A stretch of DNA of 64,000 bases from NCBI RefSeq assembly GCF_056746865.1, contig NZ_CM163382.1; one strand, written 5' to 3'. Made by a program: the position numbers. Positions within the stretch are counted from its first letter, which is position 1. Every line of letters begins with the position of its first letter. Below are positions 51,001-60,000 of this stretch, piece by piece.

Positions 51001-54000
51001 ATCACCCCGGACGACCTGAAAACGCTTTTCCACCCGGCATTGTCCGCCAGCGCTTATCACCTGCCAAGTCTGTTGTAGTAAATCCACCAGTTGTGAACAT
51101 TCTTCATCAACTGTCACACTGGCTCGCGGATGGCAGAAAAGCTCCTGGCTGAACAGCAACAGGCATCGTATTGTTGCTCCTCCATGTTGTTCCCGCAACC
51201 AGCGTAATACCACCGGCGAGGATGGGCTGGCCGTGTGATTACGCTCAGTAATACGTTCGTGCACCTGTCGGTAAAAGGAAGTACAGAATGCATGAATCTG
51301 TTGCCCGTTGATGTTTCCTTCTGCCGAATAGAGCGTGAAGTGAAATGCCAACAGATTTGGCCAGTGGTCCACCGCCTGCTGAACAAAACGCCGGATGTCT
51401 CCCGGCTCTGAAATTAAGGCTTTGGTTATTTGCACGAAATGTTCCTTTTCAAACCCTGTTGAATTTTGTTAAGCCAGTGCAGACACGCAGGAAAGCACGC
51501 CAGCACCGGTGTAATGCCAGTTATAATCAATAAGAATGGAATGACGAATCAGTCAGGAAGAGCTACAACCTGCTGGCTGACTGGAGAATGTCTGCAAGAA
51601 GATGAACGTAAATGTCGCCAGCACCAGGGACAGGGCTGATTTCCACAATACCAACGCTGGTATTTTGCACATTGCCAGCGTACCGGCATTACAACACGTT
51701 TCATGCTGCTGCCCCTCGTGATGCCTCGATTCGATGCTGCATCCACTGCTCCACTTCACTTTTGTACCAGCGGCTGCTGCGCCCCAGTTTGATGGGTTTA
51801 GGGAAATGGCCTTCACTGATCAGCTTGTAAAACCATTTGTCGGTCATACCAGTGAAGCTGGTGATGTAGTTCATGTCGATCAGGGGATCGTCGGCACGCA
51901 GCAATACGCTGTCGTGACCTGTCATTGAGGTCAACATGGTCAGAATGTCCTCTGTGAGATTTATGAATGTTGGGCAAATGCGGGTGAATCTGCTGAGCTG
52001 AGCTTTCAGAGCTGGCCTGCTACGGGATACCAGGGATTACCGGCGAGGTAACGGGCTTCCGGATCGCGCACACCACGACGATCGCGGGCGAAATCACTGA
52101 ACGCCCAGATAAGGTCCTGAAACAGGGCTTCGCAGTCCGGTGACCGGCGATCCAGTACCACATCCCGGGTGATCTGTTTCTGGTACGGTGCCGCTTCACC
52201 CGGTGACGCGAAGCCCAGTACGTTGCTCCAGGCATCCAGAATCAGCCGGTCCAGTTCAGGGCCATCGAAATACTCCTGTCTGACGCATAACACCACGTGG
52301 TATTCCGGTTTTTCAGGATGACGGGTCAGGAGCCAGCAGAGGTCACGTCCGGGTGTTGCATTCATCAGCGCACTGACGGTTTCGATAAAATCCATACCGA
52401 ACCAGATTTTTCTGTCACTGAAGGCGTTGTCATGTTCCCACGGCAGACGAAGCAGGATCCGCCGTACCCGGGAGCAGGACTGTTCACGCAGCGCACGGTT
52501 GAGAACACCGATGATTTTGTTCTGATAAGACGGCCAGAAGGGCGCCAGGCTATAGTCGAAATGAGGGATACCATTCATAAGATATGCTCCATATGGAAAC
52601 GCACGACGCATCCCCGCCAGCGAAAGACGAGCGTATGGTGAAACTGAAGGCGTCGTGTACTGAGATTGTTGATGTGATAACCGTGGAACCGGGGATGGCA
52701 GATGTCGTATGCCAGGACAGTCAGGAGACCAGACAGGTGTAAAATTCCTGAGGTGGGTTTAAGGTGAATGATCTCCGTTGACTTCAGTTCACATCATTAA
52801 TCAGGGCGGTAGATTTTTACCGACGGAGTGTTTCCAGGAGCGGAGGCTCAGGCCTTAAGCTTCAGAAGTGAGGCTTACGAGGACGCCCTGCAGCAGGACG
52901 CTCAGGAACTTCACTGCAGCCGTAGGCACACAGCCCGTCTTTTTGCTCTTCTTTCGCCAGATAATGCAGGGCACCGCGAATATTATCGATGCTTTCAGGA
53001 TCGTTGTGGCGCACAGGAATGTTGATGTTGTATGTATAATGCGGCTGATATGTACAGCGGTGTGCCGAACCGCTGTTATGCGTAATAGACTGCCAGCATT
53101 CCGTAATCCGCTCCGCAAAGGGATATATTTTTTTAACCCTCTGACGATCGAGCCAGAAAACCGCATGCGCATGAAAACCATGATCAGCCGTCCATTCAAT
53201 CACCCAGAAGAAACCAACGATATTTTCAAATTGTTCCACCTGCTCCAGCAGCATACGCAACTGCAATTCAAGCCAGCGATGATCAGGTTGTAAGAAATCA
53301 GGCGTATCTTTCCTGTAGAAGAAATCCATGCGTAAGGCCCGCAGACGGGAATAGCGTGCGACCAACTGATTGATGTGATTGTCAAGTAAAGCGGTAAAAA
53401 ACCAGTTTGGTGTGTAAGATTTAGGCATGCTGATGACTCCTGAAAGTTAATGACGTTTTAAGTGCTGTAAACGAATTAATGCTTTCGCTCATAATCAGAT
53501 CTAAAACGGTAATAACTTACAGACGGTATTTATCAGGCATGCTGTAACAGAATGGATACGTCGGTTATTAACGACACGTAGCGTTGTGCAGAAATAAATG
53601 GATTATCTGATGGTATTAGCTAAAGAGATGAGATAAACGAGGAGTGAATAAAATACAGAATCAATAAACATCACGAAATACTGCAAAATATGCGATAAAA
53701 ACCCACGATCAGAAGTTCAAGAAACATATTACGACTAATCACCATCATAAATTACAAACTTGCTCTCAATGGTTCTAAAAAACCGTGTACAAGGCCAACA
53801 CGATACCTGTAACCCAATAAACTTACACGCACTCATTTTATCTGTTAAAAACAACTCATGTTCAAGATATGAACGTTAACGGGTACACGGTACCAGAATG
53901 AAACATACCATGGATGGATAATTTTCATTTTATTTAAAATACAAGATAATCAGGAACGAACAAACACAATCAGAAATTCACTCTATTAATTCTGTTATTT

Positions 54001-57000: not shown

Positions 57001-60000
57001 CACTCATCTGAAACCCGAACAGTTGTCCGTACTCCATAACGCATTAGCAAGAATGGGCAATAATGAGTCTGCCAAATCCACTTTGTGTTGATACCGATGT
57101 GTCCAAAACAACGCTGGATATTGCCGCCAGCAACACTATTGAACGGTTTTCTGTTGCCAGTGGTGCTGACGGCGTTGATTTCATCATCGCTGAACTGAGG
57201 CAGCACGATATGGCCTTTGTGTTGATGGAAGGCCGCCATAACCTGTGCGTTTCAGCCCGAAGGTTTTGAGATCGCCGTAGTTAACCCCAGGCAAGCTCGT
57301 GACTTTGCCCGTGCGATGGGATATCTGGCGAAGACTGACCCGCATGATGCGCGGTTTTTTTGCCCAGATGGCTGCAGTTATTAATTACCATCCGGAACGA
57401 GACCGCTTTATCCGGACTTTGCCGGATGCAGAACGTCAGGTTCTTAATGCCATAGTCGTTTGCAGACACCAGTTGATCGCAATGCCAGTTACTGAGCAAA
57501 ACAGGTTGTACCCGGCTCACCCGCAAAGCAAAAAAAAACATTAATATCATCAAAGCGCTGGAAGATGAACACCCACATCCGGAACCATTTTAAAGAACCA
57601 GCTGAGCACCTGAGCAACATTAAAGGCATCGGCGTAATGACTACGGCGGTGCTGGTAGCCTGTATGCGCAAACTGCTGACCATCCTGAATGCGATACTCA
57701 GAAAGAACAAAGAAATGTAATGAATCCTGCCATCAGGTTACTCCATAATTTTGTTGGTCAAGACAGTTAATTACGTGACGTATGCTCAGGCACCGGATGC
57801 CGTTTTACAGGGCTCACCTGCCATCCAGTAGACGCCCCGGCCCACGACTGCAACCATAATTACGTTGCCCAGAACCGTCATGCTGCTTCGTCTCATACTT
57901 CACGAGATAACAGGCTCTCTCCATGGCTTTCTGCATCGCTTCCACATCACCACGCTTGACCCAGAGAACAGCGGCTTCACCCGGCTTTTTGTCTGAAGCC
58001 TTCCTGGTTTCAGAACATCCACCCGACAAAGGCGTATCATCGGAAGAAGGGCGAGCATCAGATGATGTCGGTTTACGGAAAGGCGTCCGCCTGGAAAAAT
58101 GAACCAGTCCATTACCCTGCCAGGGCTCGAGATGCAGAGCACTGCACCATGCCAGCTTGATCAGCGTCGCCAGCGAAGAAGGAACGGTGAAATCCCCTGG
58201 CGAGCACCAGGTATCTTTGTTGAGCAGTAATATCACGTGATAATGTTTCCTGCCTTTTTCCTTGCCAAACTCCCGACACCAGAAATAACGCAGAGTGGTT
58301 GCACGCACACGCTTGTTGGCACGTCGTTTTTTCCGCTGGTAAGCCTGAATTTTTGCTTTCAGGGATTCGAAAAAACGAGAAATCACTGCTGAATCTAAAT
58401 CGGTATCCATAATAGTGGCAGGCATATACTCAGGAAAACGTAAATCCACCCGAATTAACGAGACGGCACGGTGCTGCACTAGGGCACTGTCGAGAAGGCT
58501 GTCAAAACGGGATAACCAGTAAGCATTGTGTATTGGTTGATTCATGATGAGAGATCTCCGTTGATTTGGATTGACTTCACATCATTAATCACTGCGGTAA
58601 AACTTTACGGCATCCCGCCATTGAGCAACGCCAATGGCTCCTGATTAAAACAGAATGAATCCCCCACGAAGAAAAGATAAACCTACACGCAGGGTAAAAC
58701 ACACAACAACGGCATAAATGGTTTTTAAAAACTACAAAGCCCGAAGGGAAACGGATCAACAGAACGTGCAAACAAAACACCAAAAACGCAATCAGAACGC
58801 TTTCTGCTGCTGTGAATCAACAACAATACCAAAACCTACAGCTTAACCACAAAACTCAATCACAGAGCCGAATAGCGCGTTTAAAACCTGTTTACAGATA
58901 ACCCTGCCCCGAGAACAAAAACCACCAACATCAGAATCGATTTTCTTATCCTGAAAACGTTACTTTTCAACACACCATAAAAACGATTAACCATCGATAA
59001 CGTAAATCTCATCTGAATCAAAACACCAGAACCAATCATCACGCTTTTTCTGAAAAGAGCCTTATGATGAAGATAATCACCTTGCACTGAGAAAAAACAC
59101 CAGGGCCAGTTAATCATCTCATCAATCTTATCGCTACAAAATCATCCATAAAACCATTTAACAAAATCATCGTAAGCACACAGTAAATCACGCCAGGTTA
59201 TCTCAGCCGGATTTGCGTTTTACATAAAAACACTTGTCTCAGGTTAACGACTAAAAACACGAAAACTCATAAAAGGTTAAATGTAACATCAGAAAAATAG
59301 AATATCATATTGATTGCTTAAACAGGAAAGATTGTTTTGTAGTAGCATTAAGCTGATTTTAGTTAACGTAAAAACAGGACTGACAGGTTTACTAAACTGG
59401 ATGTGTATCAGACAAAGCAATGTGTATAACAATACTTAATGAAAACACTTGTAGAATTGTTTATGAAAACATGTGTATGTCTGGTAAAACACTTAGGGAA
59501 GGTGCGAACAAGTCCCTGATATGAGATCATGTTTGTCATCTGGAGCCATGGAACAGGGTTCATCATGAGTCATCAACTTACCTTCGCCGACAGTGAATTC
59601 AGCAGTAAGCGCCGTCAGACCAGAAAAGAGATTTTCTTGTCCCGCATGGAGCAGATTCTGCCATGGCAAAACATGGTGGAAGTCATCGAGCCGTTTTACC
59701 CCAAGGCTGGTAATGGCCGGCGACCTTATCCGCTGGAAACCATGCTACGCATTCACTGCATGCAGCATTGGTACAACCTGAGCGATGGCGCGATGGAAGA
59801 TGCTCTGTACGAAATCGCCTCCATGCGTCTGTTTGCCCGGTTATCCCTGGATAGCGCCTTGCCTGACCGCACCACCATCATGAATTTCCGCCACCTGCTG
59901 GAGCAGCATCAACTGGCCCGCCAATTGTTCAAGACCATCAATCGCTGGCTGGCCGAAGCAGGCGTCATGATGACTCAAGGCACCTTGGTCGATGCCACCA

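What the first reader, a model, noticed from the sequence alone, without database searches (positions are those of the whole stretch)
52006..58545. Several YagK/YfjJ-like paralogues carrying HUH-type motifs
Three ORFs (52006..52611, 52862..53428, 57814..58545) share architecture, and two carry H-hydrophobic-H motifs (HFHAH, HYH) reminiscent of rolling-circle initiators. Multiple diverged copies in one element, together with a P-loop YfjI-like protein, suggest tandemly fused or duplicated satellite-like elements.
Basis: partly seen in the sequence, partly recalled or inferred. Interest (0 to 1): 0.4.

Follow-up and report, generated by a model that had tools for sequence, protein, structure and literature searches.

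The report
Rep-like nickase paralogues in E. coli island
This stretch of a large E. coli genomic island holds four (not three) diverged copies of an uncharacterised gene family related to rolling-circle replication nickases, two with the catalytic residues and two without, arranged with the excision regulator AlpA in a gene module that is very common in enterobacteria, so it is annotated, ordinary biology whose function has simply never been tested.

Summary
The three ORFs exist and are remote homologues. ORF2 (52862-53428) and ORF3 (57814-58545) match Pfam YagK_YfjJ_C and REP_ORF2-G2P and keep a conserved HUH motif plus a C-terminal YxxK tyrosine. An AlphaFold model of ORF3 best matches HUH nucleases (parvovirus NS1, SIRV1 Rep, AAV Rep, Helitron) and microvirus replication initiators.

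ORF1 (true start probably 52578) is a cryptic member of the family. Its profile matches the ORF3 family at 98% probability, but it has lost the first His and the Tyr. Both degenerate genes are under purifying selection.

The "fused or duplicated satellites" idea is not supported. The set AlpA + catalytic copy + ORF1-type + UCP030791-type recurs in unrelated islands. A YagK-type gene lies next to alpA in 11 contexts. The 2.5-kb module is in 1010 of 5426 complete E. coli genomes.

The most likely role is inferred, not shown: a nickase set, with the DUF3987 helicase YfjI, that replicates or mobilises the excised island. The families are known and annotated, so interest is modest.

The parts
50887..51435 (-). 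ORF0: fourth, degenerate paralogue (Pfam PF27752 'UCP030791'; RefSeq 'YagK/YfjJ domain-containing' or 'UCP030791 family putative phage-derived protein'). It has TIR where HUH should be and no conserved Tyr.
   Evidence: precomputed PF27752; weak colinear hhalign to the ORF3 family; bridging proteins hit both the ORF0 and ORF3 profiles; alignment; dN/dS 0.27-0.32
51701..51937 (-). alpA-type HTH gene (excision regulator / recombination directionality factor family), 68 nt downstream of ORF1
   Evidence: (PF05930 E 2e-10), (dN/dS 0.03-0.14)
52006..52578 (-). Motif II is E-Y-H (first His lost). The Tyr motif is replaced by SDFARDRR.
   Evidence: narrow family; homologue P0360 hits PF11726 at E 1.4e-10; hhalign 98%; dN/dS 0.14-0.29; ferredoxin-like model, not discriminating
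52752..52820 (-). Degenerate relic of an ORF3-type 5' leader, between ORF2 and ORF1. It has the hairpin CGGTAAA..TACCG and the 14-mer TGATTAATGATGTG, but the start codon is lost.
   Evidence: D1/D2; 0 expected by chance
52862..53428 (-). ORF2: YagK/YfjJ / REP_ORF2-G2P-type protein with conserved H-A-H and YLAKEEQK
   Evidence: PF11726 28.3 bits vs cut-off 25.8; dN/dS 0.12-0.25
53431..54333 (-). AT-rich non-coding region upstream of ORF2 that travels with the module (82-88% identical in two other islands). It is a candidate promoter, regulatory or origin region; function untested.
55025..56629 (-). YfjI-family DUF3987 P-loop protein (putative helicase/primase). The open frame extends to 56911.
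   Evidence: E 2.4e-73; PHROG DNA helicase E 9e-42
57063..57720 (+). IS110-family transposase fragment separating YfjI from ORF3
57814..58545 (-). ORF3: canonical 'inovirus Gp2 family'/YagK-YfjJ protein with HYH and YLVKYETK. It carries a ~36-residue disordered insertion (residues 154-189) specific to the E. coli lineage.
   Evidence: PF11726 E 7e-37; PF23343 36.5 bits; dN/dS 0.28
58535..58627 (-). ORF3 leader: a small hairpin followed by a 14-nt imperfect inverted repeat (TGATTAATGATGTG / CTCATCATGAATCA) that encloses the Shine-Dalgarno sequence and includes the ATG
   Evidence: RNA fold z -1.98, only modest

Best explanation
The region is the conserved backbone of a large E. coli genomic island of the CP4-57/CP4-44 type.

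On one strand it encodes, in order: ORF3, an IS110 relic, YfjI (a DUF3987 P-loop helicase/primase-like protein), ORF2, ORF1, AlpA and ORF0.

All four ORFs descend from one ancestral HUH (Rep-type) nuclease domain.
- ORF2 and ORF3 keep the metal-binding His-hydrophobic-His and the downstream catalytic Tyr-x-x-Lys. They are predicted single-strand DNA nickases.
- ORF1 and ORF0 have lost these residues but are maintained by selection. They are predicted non-catalytic partners, either DNA-binding or regulatory.

Proposed mechanism (inferred, not shown):
1. AlpA turns on integrase-mediated excision.
2. A catalytic YagK-type protein nicks a site on the circular island.
3. Together with YfjI or a host helicase, it starts rolling-circle replication.
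4. This keeps the excised island from being lost and/or makes concatemers or single strands for transfer by a helper phage or plasmid.

The multiple copies are an ancient division of labour inside one module, not recently fused elements.
For: Identity:
- Pfam, PHROG and profile-profile matches.
- Bridging proteins link ORF0's family to the others. L011:2737-3279 hits the ORF3-family profile at 1e-17, the ORF0-family profile at 4e-13 and the ORF1-family profile at 9e-5.
- A colinear 14-sequence alignment shows motifs I, II and III.

Fold:
- ORF3 model has pLDDT 77 and pTM 0.76.
- In BFVD, every hit that carries a name is a microvirus replication initiator or a putative replication protein VP4.
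- tblastn gives a Microviridae VP4 at E 3e-4.

Catalytic residues:
- HUH and Tyr columns are nearly invariant in the ORF2 and ORF3 families.
- They are absent in the ORF1 and ORF0 families.

Selection: dN/dS is 0.12-0.32 for all four genes.

Module conservation:
- AlpA + catalytic copy + ORF1-type + UCP030791-type occurs in L006, L007, L016 and L017 as well as the window.
- A YagK-type gene is adjacent to alpA in K-12 CP4-57, Enterobacter, Serratia, Providencia and Brenneria.
- DUF3987 lies beside the pair in K-12 and Providencia.

Prevalence: the module is at least 80% covered in 1010 of 5426 complete E. coli genomes.

Literature:
- A Gp2-like protein, AlpA, IntY and RadC form the core of Pseudomonas islands. 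The excised form of one of them (I55) is circular or concatemeric, and it is transduced by a jumbo phage (PMC12595487).
- DUF3987 is the primase marker of PICMI satellites, which replicate by rolling circle (PMC10803314).
Against: - No nicking, covalent adduct, origin or island replication has been shown for any YagK/YfjJ protein. yfjI, yfjJ and yagK are still listed as uncharacterised in K-12 (PMC11551758).
- I found no convincing origin: no iterons, and no inverted repeat above chance near the genes. The leader hairpin is only modestly better than shuffles (z -1.98), and no motif is shared across genera.
- The family is almost absent from plasmids (64 of 72,556, all 31 kb or larger) and from real phages. 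It is therefore not used as a stand-alone replicon initiator.
- Some copies lie far from any alpA (K-12 yagK, L018).
- The ORF1 model matches generic ferredoxin-like folds as well as it matches Reps.
- The ORF0 link to the family rests on transitive profile hits. The direct hhalign is weak (19%).
Confidence: 0.45

Rival explanations
1. The proteins are domesticated DNA-binding regulators. The HUH-derived fold is used only to recognise DNA, for example to control alpA, int or cargo transcription or H-NS silencing, and none of the four nicks DNA.
For: - Two of the four have lost the catalytic residues yet stay under purifying selection.
- The genes sit in AT-rich regulatory-looking regions next to an HTH regulator.
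- The ORF3 leader contains a 14-nt palindrome over its own start codon, which would suit autoregulation.
- The family is not used by plasmids or phages as an initiator.
Against: HUH and YxxK are nearly invariant across genera in the ORF2 and ORF3 families. That is hard to explain without catalysis.
Confidence: 0.2
2. The catalytic copies are Rep-like relaxases. They nick an oriT on the excised island so that a co-resident conjugative plasmid or ICE can mobilise it, as the Rep-related relaxases of streptococcal integrative mobilisable elements do (recalled from my own knowledge).
For: - The same nuclease evidence as for the best explanation.
- Coupling to AlpA and excision.
- Of the 64 plasmids that carry a homologue, 39 are conjugative.
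Against: - No coupling protein, oriT or mating-pair gene was seen in any locus inspected.
- The Pseudomonas islands with the same core were moved by a phage, not by conjugation (PMC12595487).
Confidence: 0.15
3. One reading: the several copies mark two or more satellite-like elements fused or duplicated in tandem.
For: - IS110 and IS5 sequences flank ORF3.
- A relic of an ORF3-type leader lies between ORF2 and ORF1, which shows past recombination.
- AlpA plus DUF3987 are marker genes of PICMI satellites.
Against: - The paralogues are only 15-25% identical and belong to separate old subfamilies.
- The same set recurs as one module in unrelated islands.
- The window holds one alpA among the genes I scanned. 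No tRNA was found in the window. The only attachment-site check was a repeat search over 50000-60000, and the window was not scanned for an integrase.
- The window lies inside one island longer than 64 kb.
Confidence: 0.08
4. The genes are decaying remnants of a defunct prophage and have no present function.
For: - The elements are called cryptic prophages in K-12.
- Frameshifted copies exist: ORF1 and ORF3 in strain PK8276, and 214-aa truncated ORF3 variants.
Against: - dN/dS is 0.12-0.32.
- Intact forms dominate: clusters of 5187, 2013 and 1571 members for full-length ORF3.
- Synteny is conserved across genera.
Confidence: 0.07

Closest known systems
E. coli K-12 YfjJ and YagK (cryptic prophages CP4-57 and CP4-6); Pfam PF11726 YagK_YfjJ_C; RefSeq 'inovirus Gp2 family protein'
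   Same: ORF3 is 30% identical to both over the full length (E 1e-26), with the same HYH and Y-x-x-K motifs. In CP4-57 the gene sits in alpA-yfjI-yfjJ, the same three gene types as here.
   Different: - The gene order differs. Here ORF3 precedes yfjI, an IS110 relic lies between them, and alpA is 6 kb away.
- The window also holds three further, much more diverged paralogues that K-12 CP4-57 lacks.
HUH rolling-circle initiators of the Rep class (microvirus VP4/gpA, parvovirus NS1/AAV Rep nuclease domains, SIRV1 ORF119; Pfam PF23343 REP_ORF2-G2P)
   Same: - Motif order I, then HUH, then Tyr.
- Weak direct sequence similarity to a Microviridae VP4.
   Different: - These are small single-domain proteins (188-243 aa) with no fused helicase.
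- They are chromosomal-island genes, not phage or plasmid genes.
- No origin is known and no activity has been shown.
- Two paralogues lack the active site.
Pseudomonas tmRNA-integrated islands I23/I44/I55 (IntY, AlpA, RadC, inovirus Gp2-like core), transduced by a jumbo phage (PMC12595487)
   Same: The core gene set is shared: AlpA, a Gp2-like protein and RadC, plus variable defence and cargo genes. A RadC-CbtA block follows this region in close relatives of the window.
   Different: - Different genus and integration site.
- Mobility of the E. coli island is untested.
- The paper does not assign a function to the Gp2-like protein.
Phage satellites with int-alpA-primase(DUF3987) cores (PICMI, PICI)
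   Same: AlpA and a DUF3987 protein are present. PICMI replicates by rolling circle after induction (PMC10803314).
   Different: - The island is longer than 64 kb, against about 5-15 kb for satellites.
- No packaging or hijack genes were seen.
- No integrase turned up in the part of the window I annotated.
- YagK-type genes are not part of the satellite definitions quoted.

Membership tests
YagK/YfjJ family (Pfam PF11726) | Match to the PF11726 profile above its gathering score | tested here: met
   ORF3 scores 127.3 bits and ORF2 28.3 bits against a cut-off of 25.8. ORF1 and ORF0 do not match directly.
YagK/YfjJ family (Pfam PF11726) | For ORF1: homology shown by profile-profile comparison or through intermediates | tested here: met
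   hhalign gives 98.1%, E 8.9e-14 against the ORF3 family. Homologue P0360 hits PF11726 at E 1.4e-10. BLASTP against K-12 YfjJ gives E 1.5e-4.
YagK/YfjJ family (Pfam PF11726) | For ORF0 (PF27752 UCP030791): homology shown by profile-profile comparison or through intermediates | tested here: inconclusive
   The direct hhalign is only 19%, E 1.2e-3, but colinear. Bridging proteins hit both profiles: L011:2737-3279 at 1e-17 and 4e-13, and L007:8765-9238 at 4e-5 and 2e-8. The precomputed Pfam record lists both PF27752 and PF11726 on the Serratia protein. No structure model was made.
HUH endonuclease superfamily, Rep class | Conserved His-hydrophobic-His (motif II) followed by hydrophobic residues | tested here: met
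   Met for ORF3 (HYHVILLL) and ORF2 (HAHAVFWL), with nearly invariant columns. Not met for ORF1 (E-Y-H; C or F in homologues) or ORF0 (T-I-R).
HUH endonuclease superfamily, Rep class | Catalytic Tyr (YxxK, motif III) C-terminal to HUH | tested here: met
   ORF3 has YLVKYETK and ORF2 has YLAKEEQK, both conserved. ORF1 has SDFARDRR. ORF0 has no conserved Tyr, and its Y150 is replaced by H or F in relatives.
HUH endonuclease superfamily, Rep class | HUH fold (antiparallel sheet with flanking helices) | tested here: met
HUH endonuclease superfamily, Rep class | Site-specific single-strand nicking with a covalent 5'-phosphotyrosine link, at a cognate origin | not testable with these tools
   This needs biochemistry. 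No origin-like hairpin or iteron stood out above chance.
Inovirus gpII (the source of the 'inovirus Gp2' name) | Detectable similarity to gpII of real filamentous phages | tested here: inconclusive
   tblastn of ORF3 and ORF2 against 50,697 phage records found no inovirus at E <= 1e-3. It found only a Microviridae VP4, Acinetobacter phage contigs and a host-contaminated record. ORF3 does pass PF23343, whose name includes G2P.
Phage satellite (PICI / PICMI / P4-like) | Small element (about 5-20 kb) with int, alpA, primase/rep and packaging or hijack functions | tested here: not met
   alpA and DUF3987 are present. However, the window lies wholly inside an island longer than 64 kb with adhesin and metabolic cargo. 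There is no tRNA in the window, and no integrase or packaging gene was seen among the genes annotated for about 27000-64000.
CP4-57/CP4-44-type enterobacterial island backbone | alpA, yfjI (DUF3987) and a yfjJ-type gene, plus a GTPase-DUF932-antirestriction-RadC-CbeA/CbtA block | tested here: met
   The first three are in the window. The GTPase-to-CbtA block follows directly in the closest genomes.

The most novel reading that the evidence does not exclude
The conserved set of one catalytic and two catalytically dead HUH paralogues, with AlpA, forms a dedicated multi-subunit initiation complex. The dead copies would recognise or load the origin for the active nickase. This complex would drive rolling-circle amplification of excised CP4-type islands, and would explain how these very common 'cryptic prophage' islands persist and get transduced without encoding any phage or conjugation machinery.
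Probability: 0.15. Interest if true: 0.6.

Novelty: new member of a known kind. Interest (0 to 1): 0.3.

Why it matters
These genes sit in the backbone of islands found in more than half of complete E. coli genomes. The same islands carry virulence, resistance and anti-phage cargo. Yet yfjI, yfjJ and yagK are still in the K-12 list of uncharacterised genes.

If the catalytic copies are shown to nick and replicate the excised island, that would give a mechanism for the maintenance and spread of a major class of pathogenicity and defence islands.

Two small additions come from this work. The neighbouring 'hypothetical' genes (ORF1-type and UCP030791-type) are inactivated relatives of the nickase. 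All of them travel with alpA as one module. Both points suggest concrete deletion and biochemistry experiments.

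Tried and rejected
- NCBIfam and PADLOC gave nothing for any of the four ORFs or for YfjI.
- Sequence searches of the PDB with the ORF2 and ORF3 family profiles and with YfjI gave no meaningful hit.
- Rfam and the tRNA scan of the whole window were empty.
- A genome-collection scan with the ORF1 family returned a single locus, so it could not be used for a synteny census.
- 'Escherichia phage ECO111 5-P' looked like a small phage carrying a Gp2 homologue. It is an unverified, low-coverage contig made of host island DNA plus IS66, so I rejected it.
- The inverted repeat flanking ORF3 (57783-57803 / 58607-58627) is within the number expected by chance for a 9-nt seed in 10 kb, by my own rough estimate.
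- The promoter scan found no more sites than shuffles do.
- The heptamer CATTAAT recurs upstream of 5 of 12 independent catalytic copies. I chose it after looking, so I give it no weight. A resemblance of TGATTAATGATG to the phiX174 origin core is recalled from memory only and was not tested.

Full report
WHAT IS THERE

The window is E. coli chromosomal DNA. Bases 50500-59500 are 99% identical to strain W2-5, and at least 80% of that stretch is present in 270 of 5426 complete genomes.

RefSeq annotation of the closest genomes and my own ORF list agree on a co-directional minus-strand cluster. In the direction of transcription it reads:
- ORF3 (57814-58545, 'inovirus Gp2 family protein')
- an IS110 fragment on the other strand
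- YfjI (55025-56629, with the open frame running to 56911)
- a 1.6-kb AT-rich gap
- ORF2 (52862-53428, 'YagK/YfjJ domain-containing')
- ORF1 (52006-52578, 'hypothetical')
- alpA (51701-51937)
- ORF0 (50887-51435, 'YagK/YfjJ domain-containing' or 'UCP030791 family')

To the right of the window's end, close relatives continue with the GTPase-DUF905-DUF932-antirestriction-RadC-CbeA/CbtA-DUF4942 block and then the core gene cadC. To the left lie IS remnants, a YadA-like adhesin and metabolic cargo. No tRNA gene is in the window. The window therefore lies wholly inside one island longer than 64 kb.

CHECK OF THE OBSERVATION

The three ORFs exist as described. Two details need correcting.
- ORF1 most probably starts at 52578, not 52611. 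That is the RefSeq start, GGAG lies 9 nt upstream, and distant homologues begin there.
- ORF2's motif reads HGFHAH, not HFHAH.

Pairwise BLASTP between the three is not convincing (E 0.014, 6e-4, 0.026). Pfam places ORF3 firmly in PF11726 (E 7e-37) and also above threshold in PF23343 REP_ORF2-G2P. ORF2 is just above the PF11726 threshold (28.3 vs 25.8 bits). ORF1 is placed nowhere.

An exhaustive search with ORF1 found a very narrow family. Only three full-length clusters exist at 50% identity. One distant member, P0360 (34% identical), hits PF11726 at E 1.4e-10.

Profile-profile comparison settles the relationships:
- ORF1 family vs ORF3 family: 98.1% probability, E 8.9e-14.
- ORF2 family vs ORF3 family: 95.2%, E 2.7e-8, over the full length.
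- ORF1 also matches K-12 YfjJ directly (E 1.5e-4).
- ORF3 is 30% identical to both K-12 YfjJ and YagK.

A FOURTH PARALOGUE

ORF0 carries the precomputed Pfam label PF27752 (UCP030791), which is not in my Pfam copy. Its direct profile match to the ORF3 family is weak but colinear (19%, E 1.2e-3).

I built HMMs from my four family alignments and searched all fetched loci. Bridging proteins linked the families:
- A Serratia protein (L011:2737-3279) scores 1e-17 with the ORF3 profile, 4e-13 with the ORF0 profile and 9e-5 with the ORF1 profile.
- L007:8765-9238 scores 4e-5, 2e-8 and 1e-5 with the same three profiles.

No other paralogue was found anywhere in the window.

A joint alignment of all four types is colinear through three features: a first strand (IRVDLRxP), the HUH strand, and a conserved helix (LIxQAWxSAL, with W nearly invariant).

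CATALYTIC MOTIFS

In the ORF3 family, HYH and Y-L-x-K are conserved in every full-length member. In the ORF2 family, H86, A87, H88, Y156 and K159 are nearly invariant. HUH precedes Tyr, as in Rep-type enzymes.

ORF1 has E-Y-H, and its homologues have C-Y-H or F-Y-H. At the Tyr position it has S-D-F/M, followed by an invariant RDR.

ORF0 has T-I-R in place of HUH. Its only nearby Tyr (Y150) is H or F in close relatives.

ORF1 and ORF0 are therefore predicted to be catalytically dead. They are not pseudogenes. Between island copies that differ by 8-17% in DNA, dN/dS values are:
- ORF0: 0.27-0.32
- ORF1: 0.14-0.29
- ORF2: 0.12-0.25
- ORF3: 0.28
- alpA: 0.03-0.14

FOLD

The AlphaFold model of ORF3 has pLDDT 77 and pTM 0.76, with a disordered lineage-specific insertion at residues 154-189.

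Against predicted viral structures, the named hits are microvirus replication initiators. tblastn of ORF3 finds a Microviridae VP4 at E 3e-4.

The ORF1 model came from a shallow alignment (pLDDT 72). It matches ferredoxin-like folds in general. SIRV1 Rep ranks second, but the result does not discriminate.

I could not inspect model coordinates, so the spatial clustering of the His and Tyr residues is untested.

ONE ELEMENT OR FUSED ELEMENTS?

The distant ORF1 homologues sit in the same arrangement:
- L007: alpA, then a YfjJ-type catalytic copy, then an ORF1-type gene, then a UCP030791-type gene. These are divergent from a GTPase-WYL-DUF932-RadC-CbeA block.
- L006: alpA, then an ORF2-type gene, then one gene on the other strand, then an ORF1-type gene, then a UCP030791-type gene.

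Two other E. coli islands with different cargo (dsdCXA with two-partner secretion; IS-rich with H-NS) have ORF2, ORF1, alpA and ORF0 in the window's order.

A YagK-type gene lies immediately beside alpA in K-12 CP4-57, Enterobacter, Serratia, two Providencia species and Brenneria. DUF3987 is adjacent in K-12 and Providencia. Exceptions exist: K-12 yagK, L018 and Xenorhabdus.

The 2.5-kb ORF0-ORF2 module is at least 80% covered in 1010 of 5426 complete E. coli genomes. Some part of it occurs in 2973 genomes, with a median of two places per genome. ORF3-type genes are in 1878 genomes.

The paralogues are old (15-25% identity) and travel together. This contradicts recent tandem fusion or duplication.

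There is a real trace of past recombination. A 70-nt copy of the ORF3-type leader lies between ORF2 and ORF1 at 52752-52820, matching 58535-58608. It is 73-79% identical, and none is expected by chance. Its start codon and downstream palindrome arm have decayed. This fits an ancestor like L007, in which a YfjJ-type gene directly preceded the ORF1-type gene and was later replaced by an ORF2-type gene. That last step is inference.

OTHER TESTS

No real phage genome carries these genes. The one apparent 4.5-kb 'phage' is an unverified contig of host island DNA with IS66. Only 64 of 72,556 plasmids have a homologue, and all of them are large. The family is therefore not a stand-alone replicon initiator.

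PADLOC shows no link to known defence systems.

I found no convincing origin. The 850-900 nt upstream of ORF2 are conserved with the module (82-88%) and would be the first place to look.

HOW IT MOST LIKELY WORKS

Shown:
- Superfamily membership.
- Active-site residues intact in two copies and lost in two.
- Purifying selection on all four.
- Conserved linkage to alpA and, often, to DUF3987.

Inferred:
- AlpA-type proteins activate integrase-mediated excision. This is established for CP4-57 according to the literature cited in PMC12595487.
- A catalytic YagK-type protein then nicks the circular island.
- With YfjI (PHROG helicase E 9e-42) or a host helicase, it starts rolling-circle replication.
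- The dead paralogues act as DNA-binding or regulatory partners.

Two literature results are consistent with this. Pseudomonas islands with the same IntY-AlpA-Gp2-like-RadC core include one (I55) that excises to a circular or concatemeric form and is transduced by a jumbo phage (PMC12595487). PICMI satellites with alpA and a DUF3987 primase replicate by rolling circle (PMC10803314).

I give about 0.9 to the identity statements and about 0.4 to the replication mechanism. The main rivals are a purely regulatory role and a relaxase role in conjugative mobilisation.

COMPARISON WITH WHAT IS KNOWN, AND VERDICT

The families are known and annotated (PF11726, PF23343, PF27752; RefSeq names). The HUH relationship is implicit in those names. 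yfjI, yfjJ and yagK remain in the K-12 list of uncharacterised genes (PMC11551758), and my literature searches found no functional study.

This analysis adds four points:
- ORF1-type 'hypothetical' proteins are cryptic, inactivated members of the family.
- UCP030791 proteins are very probably inactivated members too.
- One active plus two dead paralogues and alpA form a recurrent module.
- Direct searches link the family to microvirus-type initiators rather than to inoviruses.

This is a new member, or a modest extension, of a known kind, in a very common island backbone. Interest is modest (0.3).

Noticed in passing
window 54200-54450: A tract of about 230 nt that is purine-rich on the plus strand and pyrimidine-rich on the minus strand (GC skew up to +0.74, AT skew up to +0.48). 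It lies inside the 1.6-kb AT-rich gap between yfjI and ORF2. Part of it lies in the stretch conserved with other islands.
   Followed up: partly
window 53431-54333: The non-coding region upstream of ORF2 is as conserved as the genes (88% with L017, 82% with L016). It may hold promoters, a small RNA or an origin. Rfam found nothing at gathering thresholds.
   Followed up: partly
window 47656-49476 (repeat at 48224-48798): A YadA-like trimeric autotransporter adhesin gene holds a 99-nt tandem repeat, 5.8 copies at 98% identity, which encodes a 33-residue repeat. The array is probably variable in length between strains; the relative in strain PK8276 is 1668 nt long.
   Followed up: partly
window 50566-50868 (+): A ProQ/FinO-domain ORF (E 3e-17) converges on ORF0. 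It is annotated as frameshifted in the closest genomes but is intact (345 nt) in strain MSB1_8B. An RNA-chaperone gene seems to be a regular neighbour of the module.
   Followed up: no
window 59497-60600 and 57063-57720: An IS5-family insertion (transposase 59529-60545) is absent from the otherwise 99% identical strain W2-5. An IS110 fragment is fixed between yfjI and ORF3 in all close relatives.
   Followed up: partly
window 58535-58591 (-): A 14-nt imperfect inverted repeat (TGATTAATGATGTG / CTCATCATGAATCA) encloses the Shine-Dalgarno sequence and the start codon of ORF3. It could be a translational hairpin or an operator. The RNA fold gives only z -1.98.
   Followed up: partly
window 61381-62304 (+) and 62301-63248 (-): Two convergent, overlapping genes of unknown function have no Pfam, PADLOC or significant NCBIfam match. 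They lie between ORF3 and the GTPase block. The first ends in a 21-nt x2 repeat (62258-62298, encoding LIQNHRL twice).
   Followed up: no
ORF3 homologues, window 57814-58545 residues 154-189: E. coli ORF3-type proteins carry a disordered insertion of about 36 residues that is absent from Providencia, Brenneria and other relatives. Several 214-aa variants are frameshifted inside it and lose the Tyr motif.
   Followed up: partly
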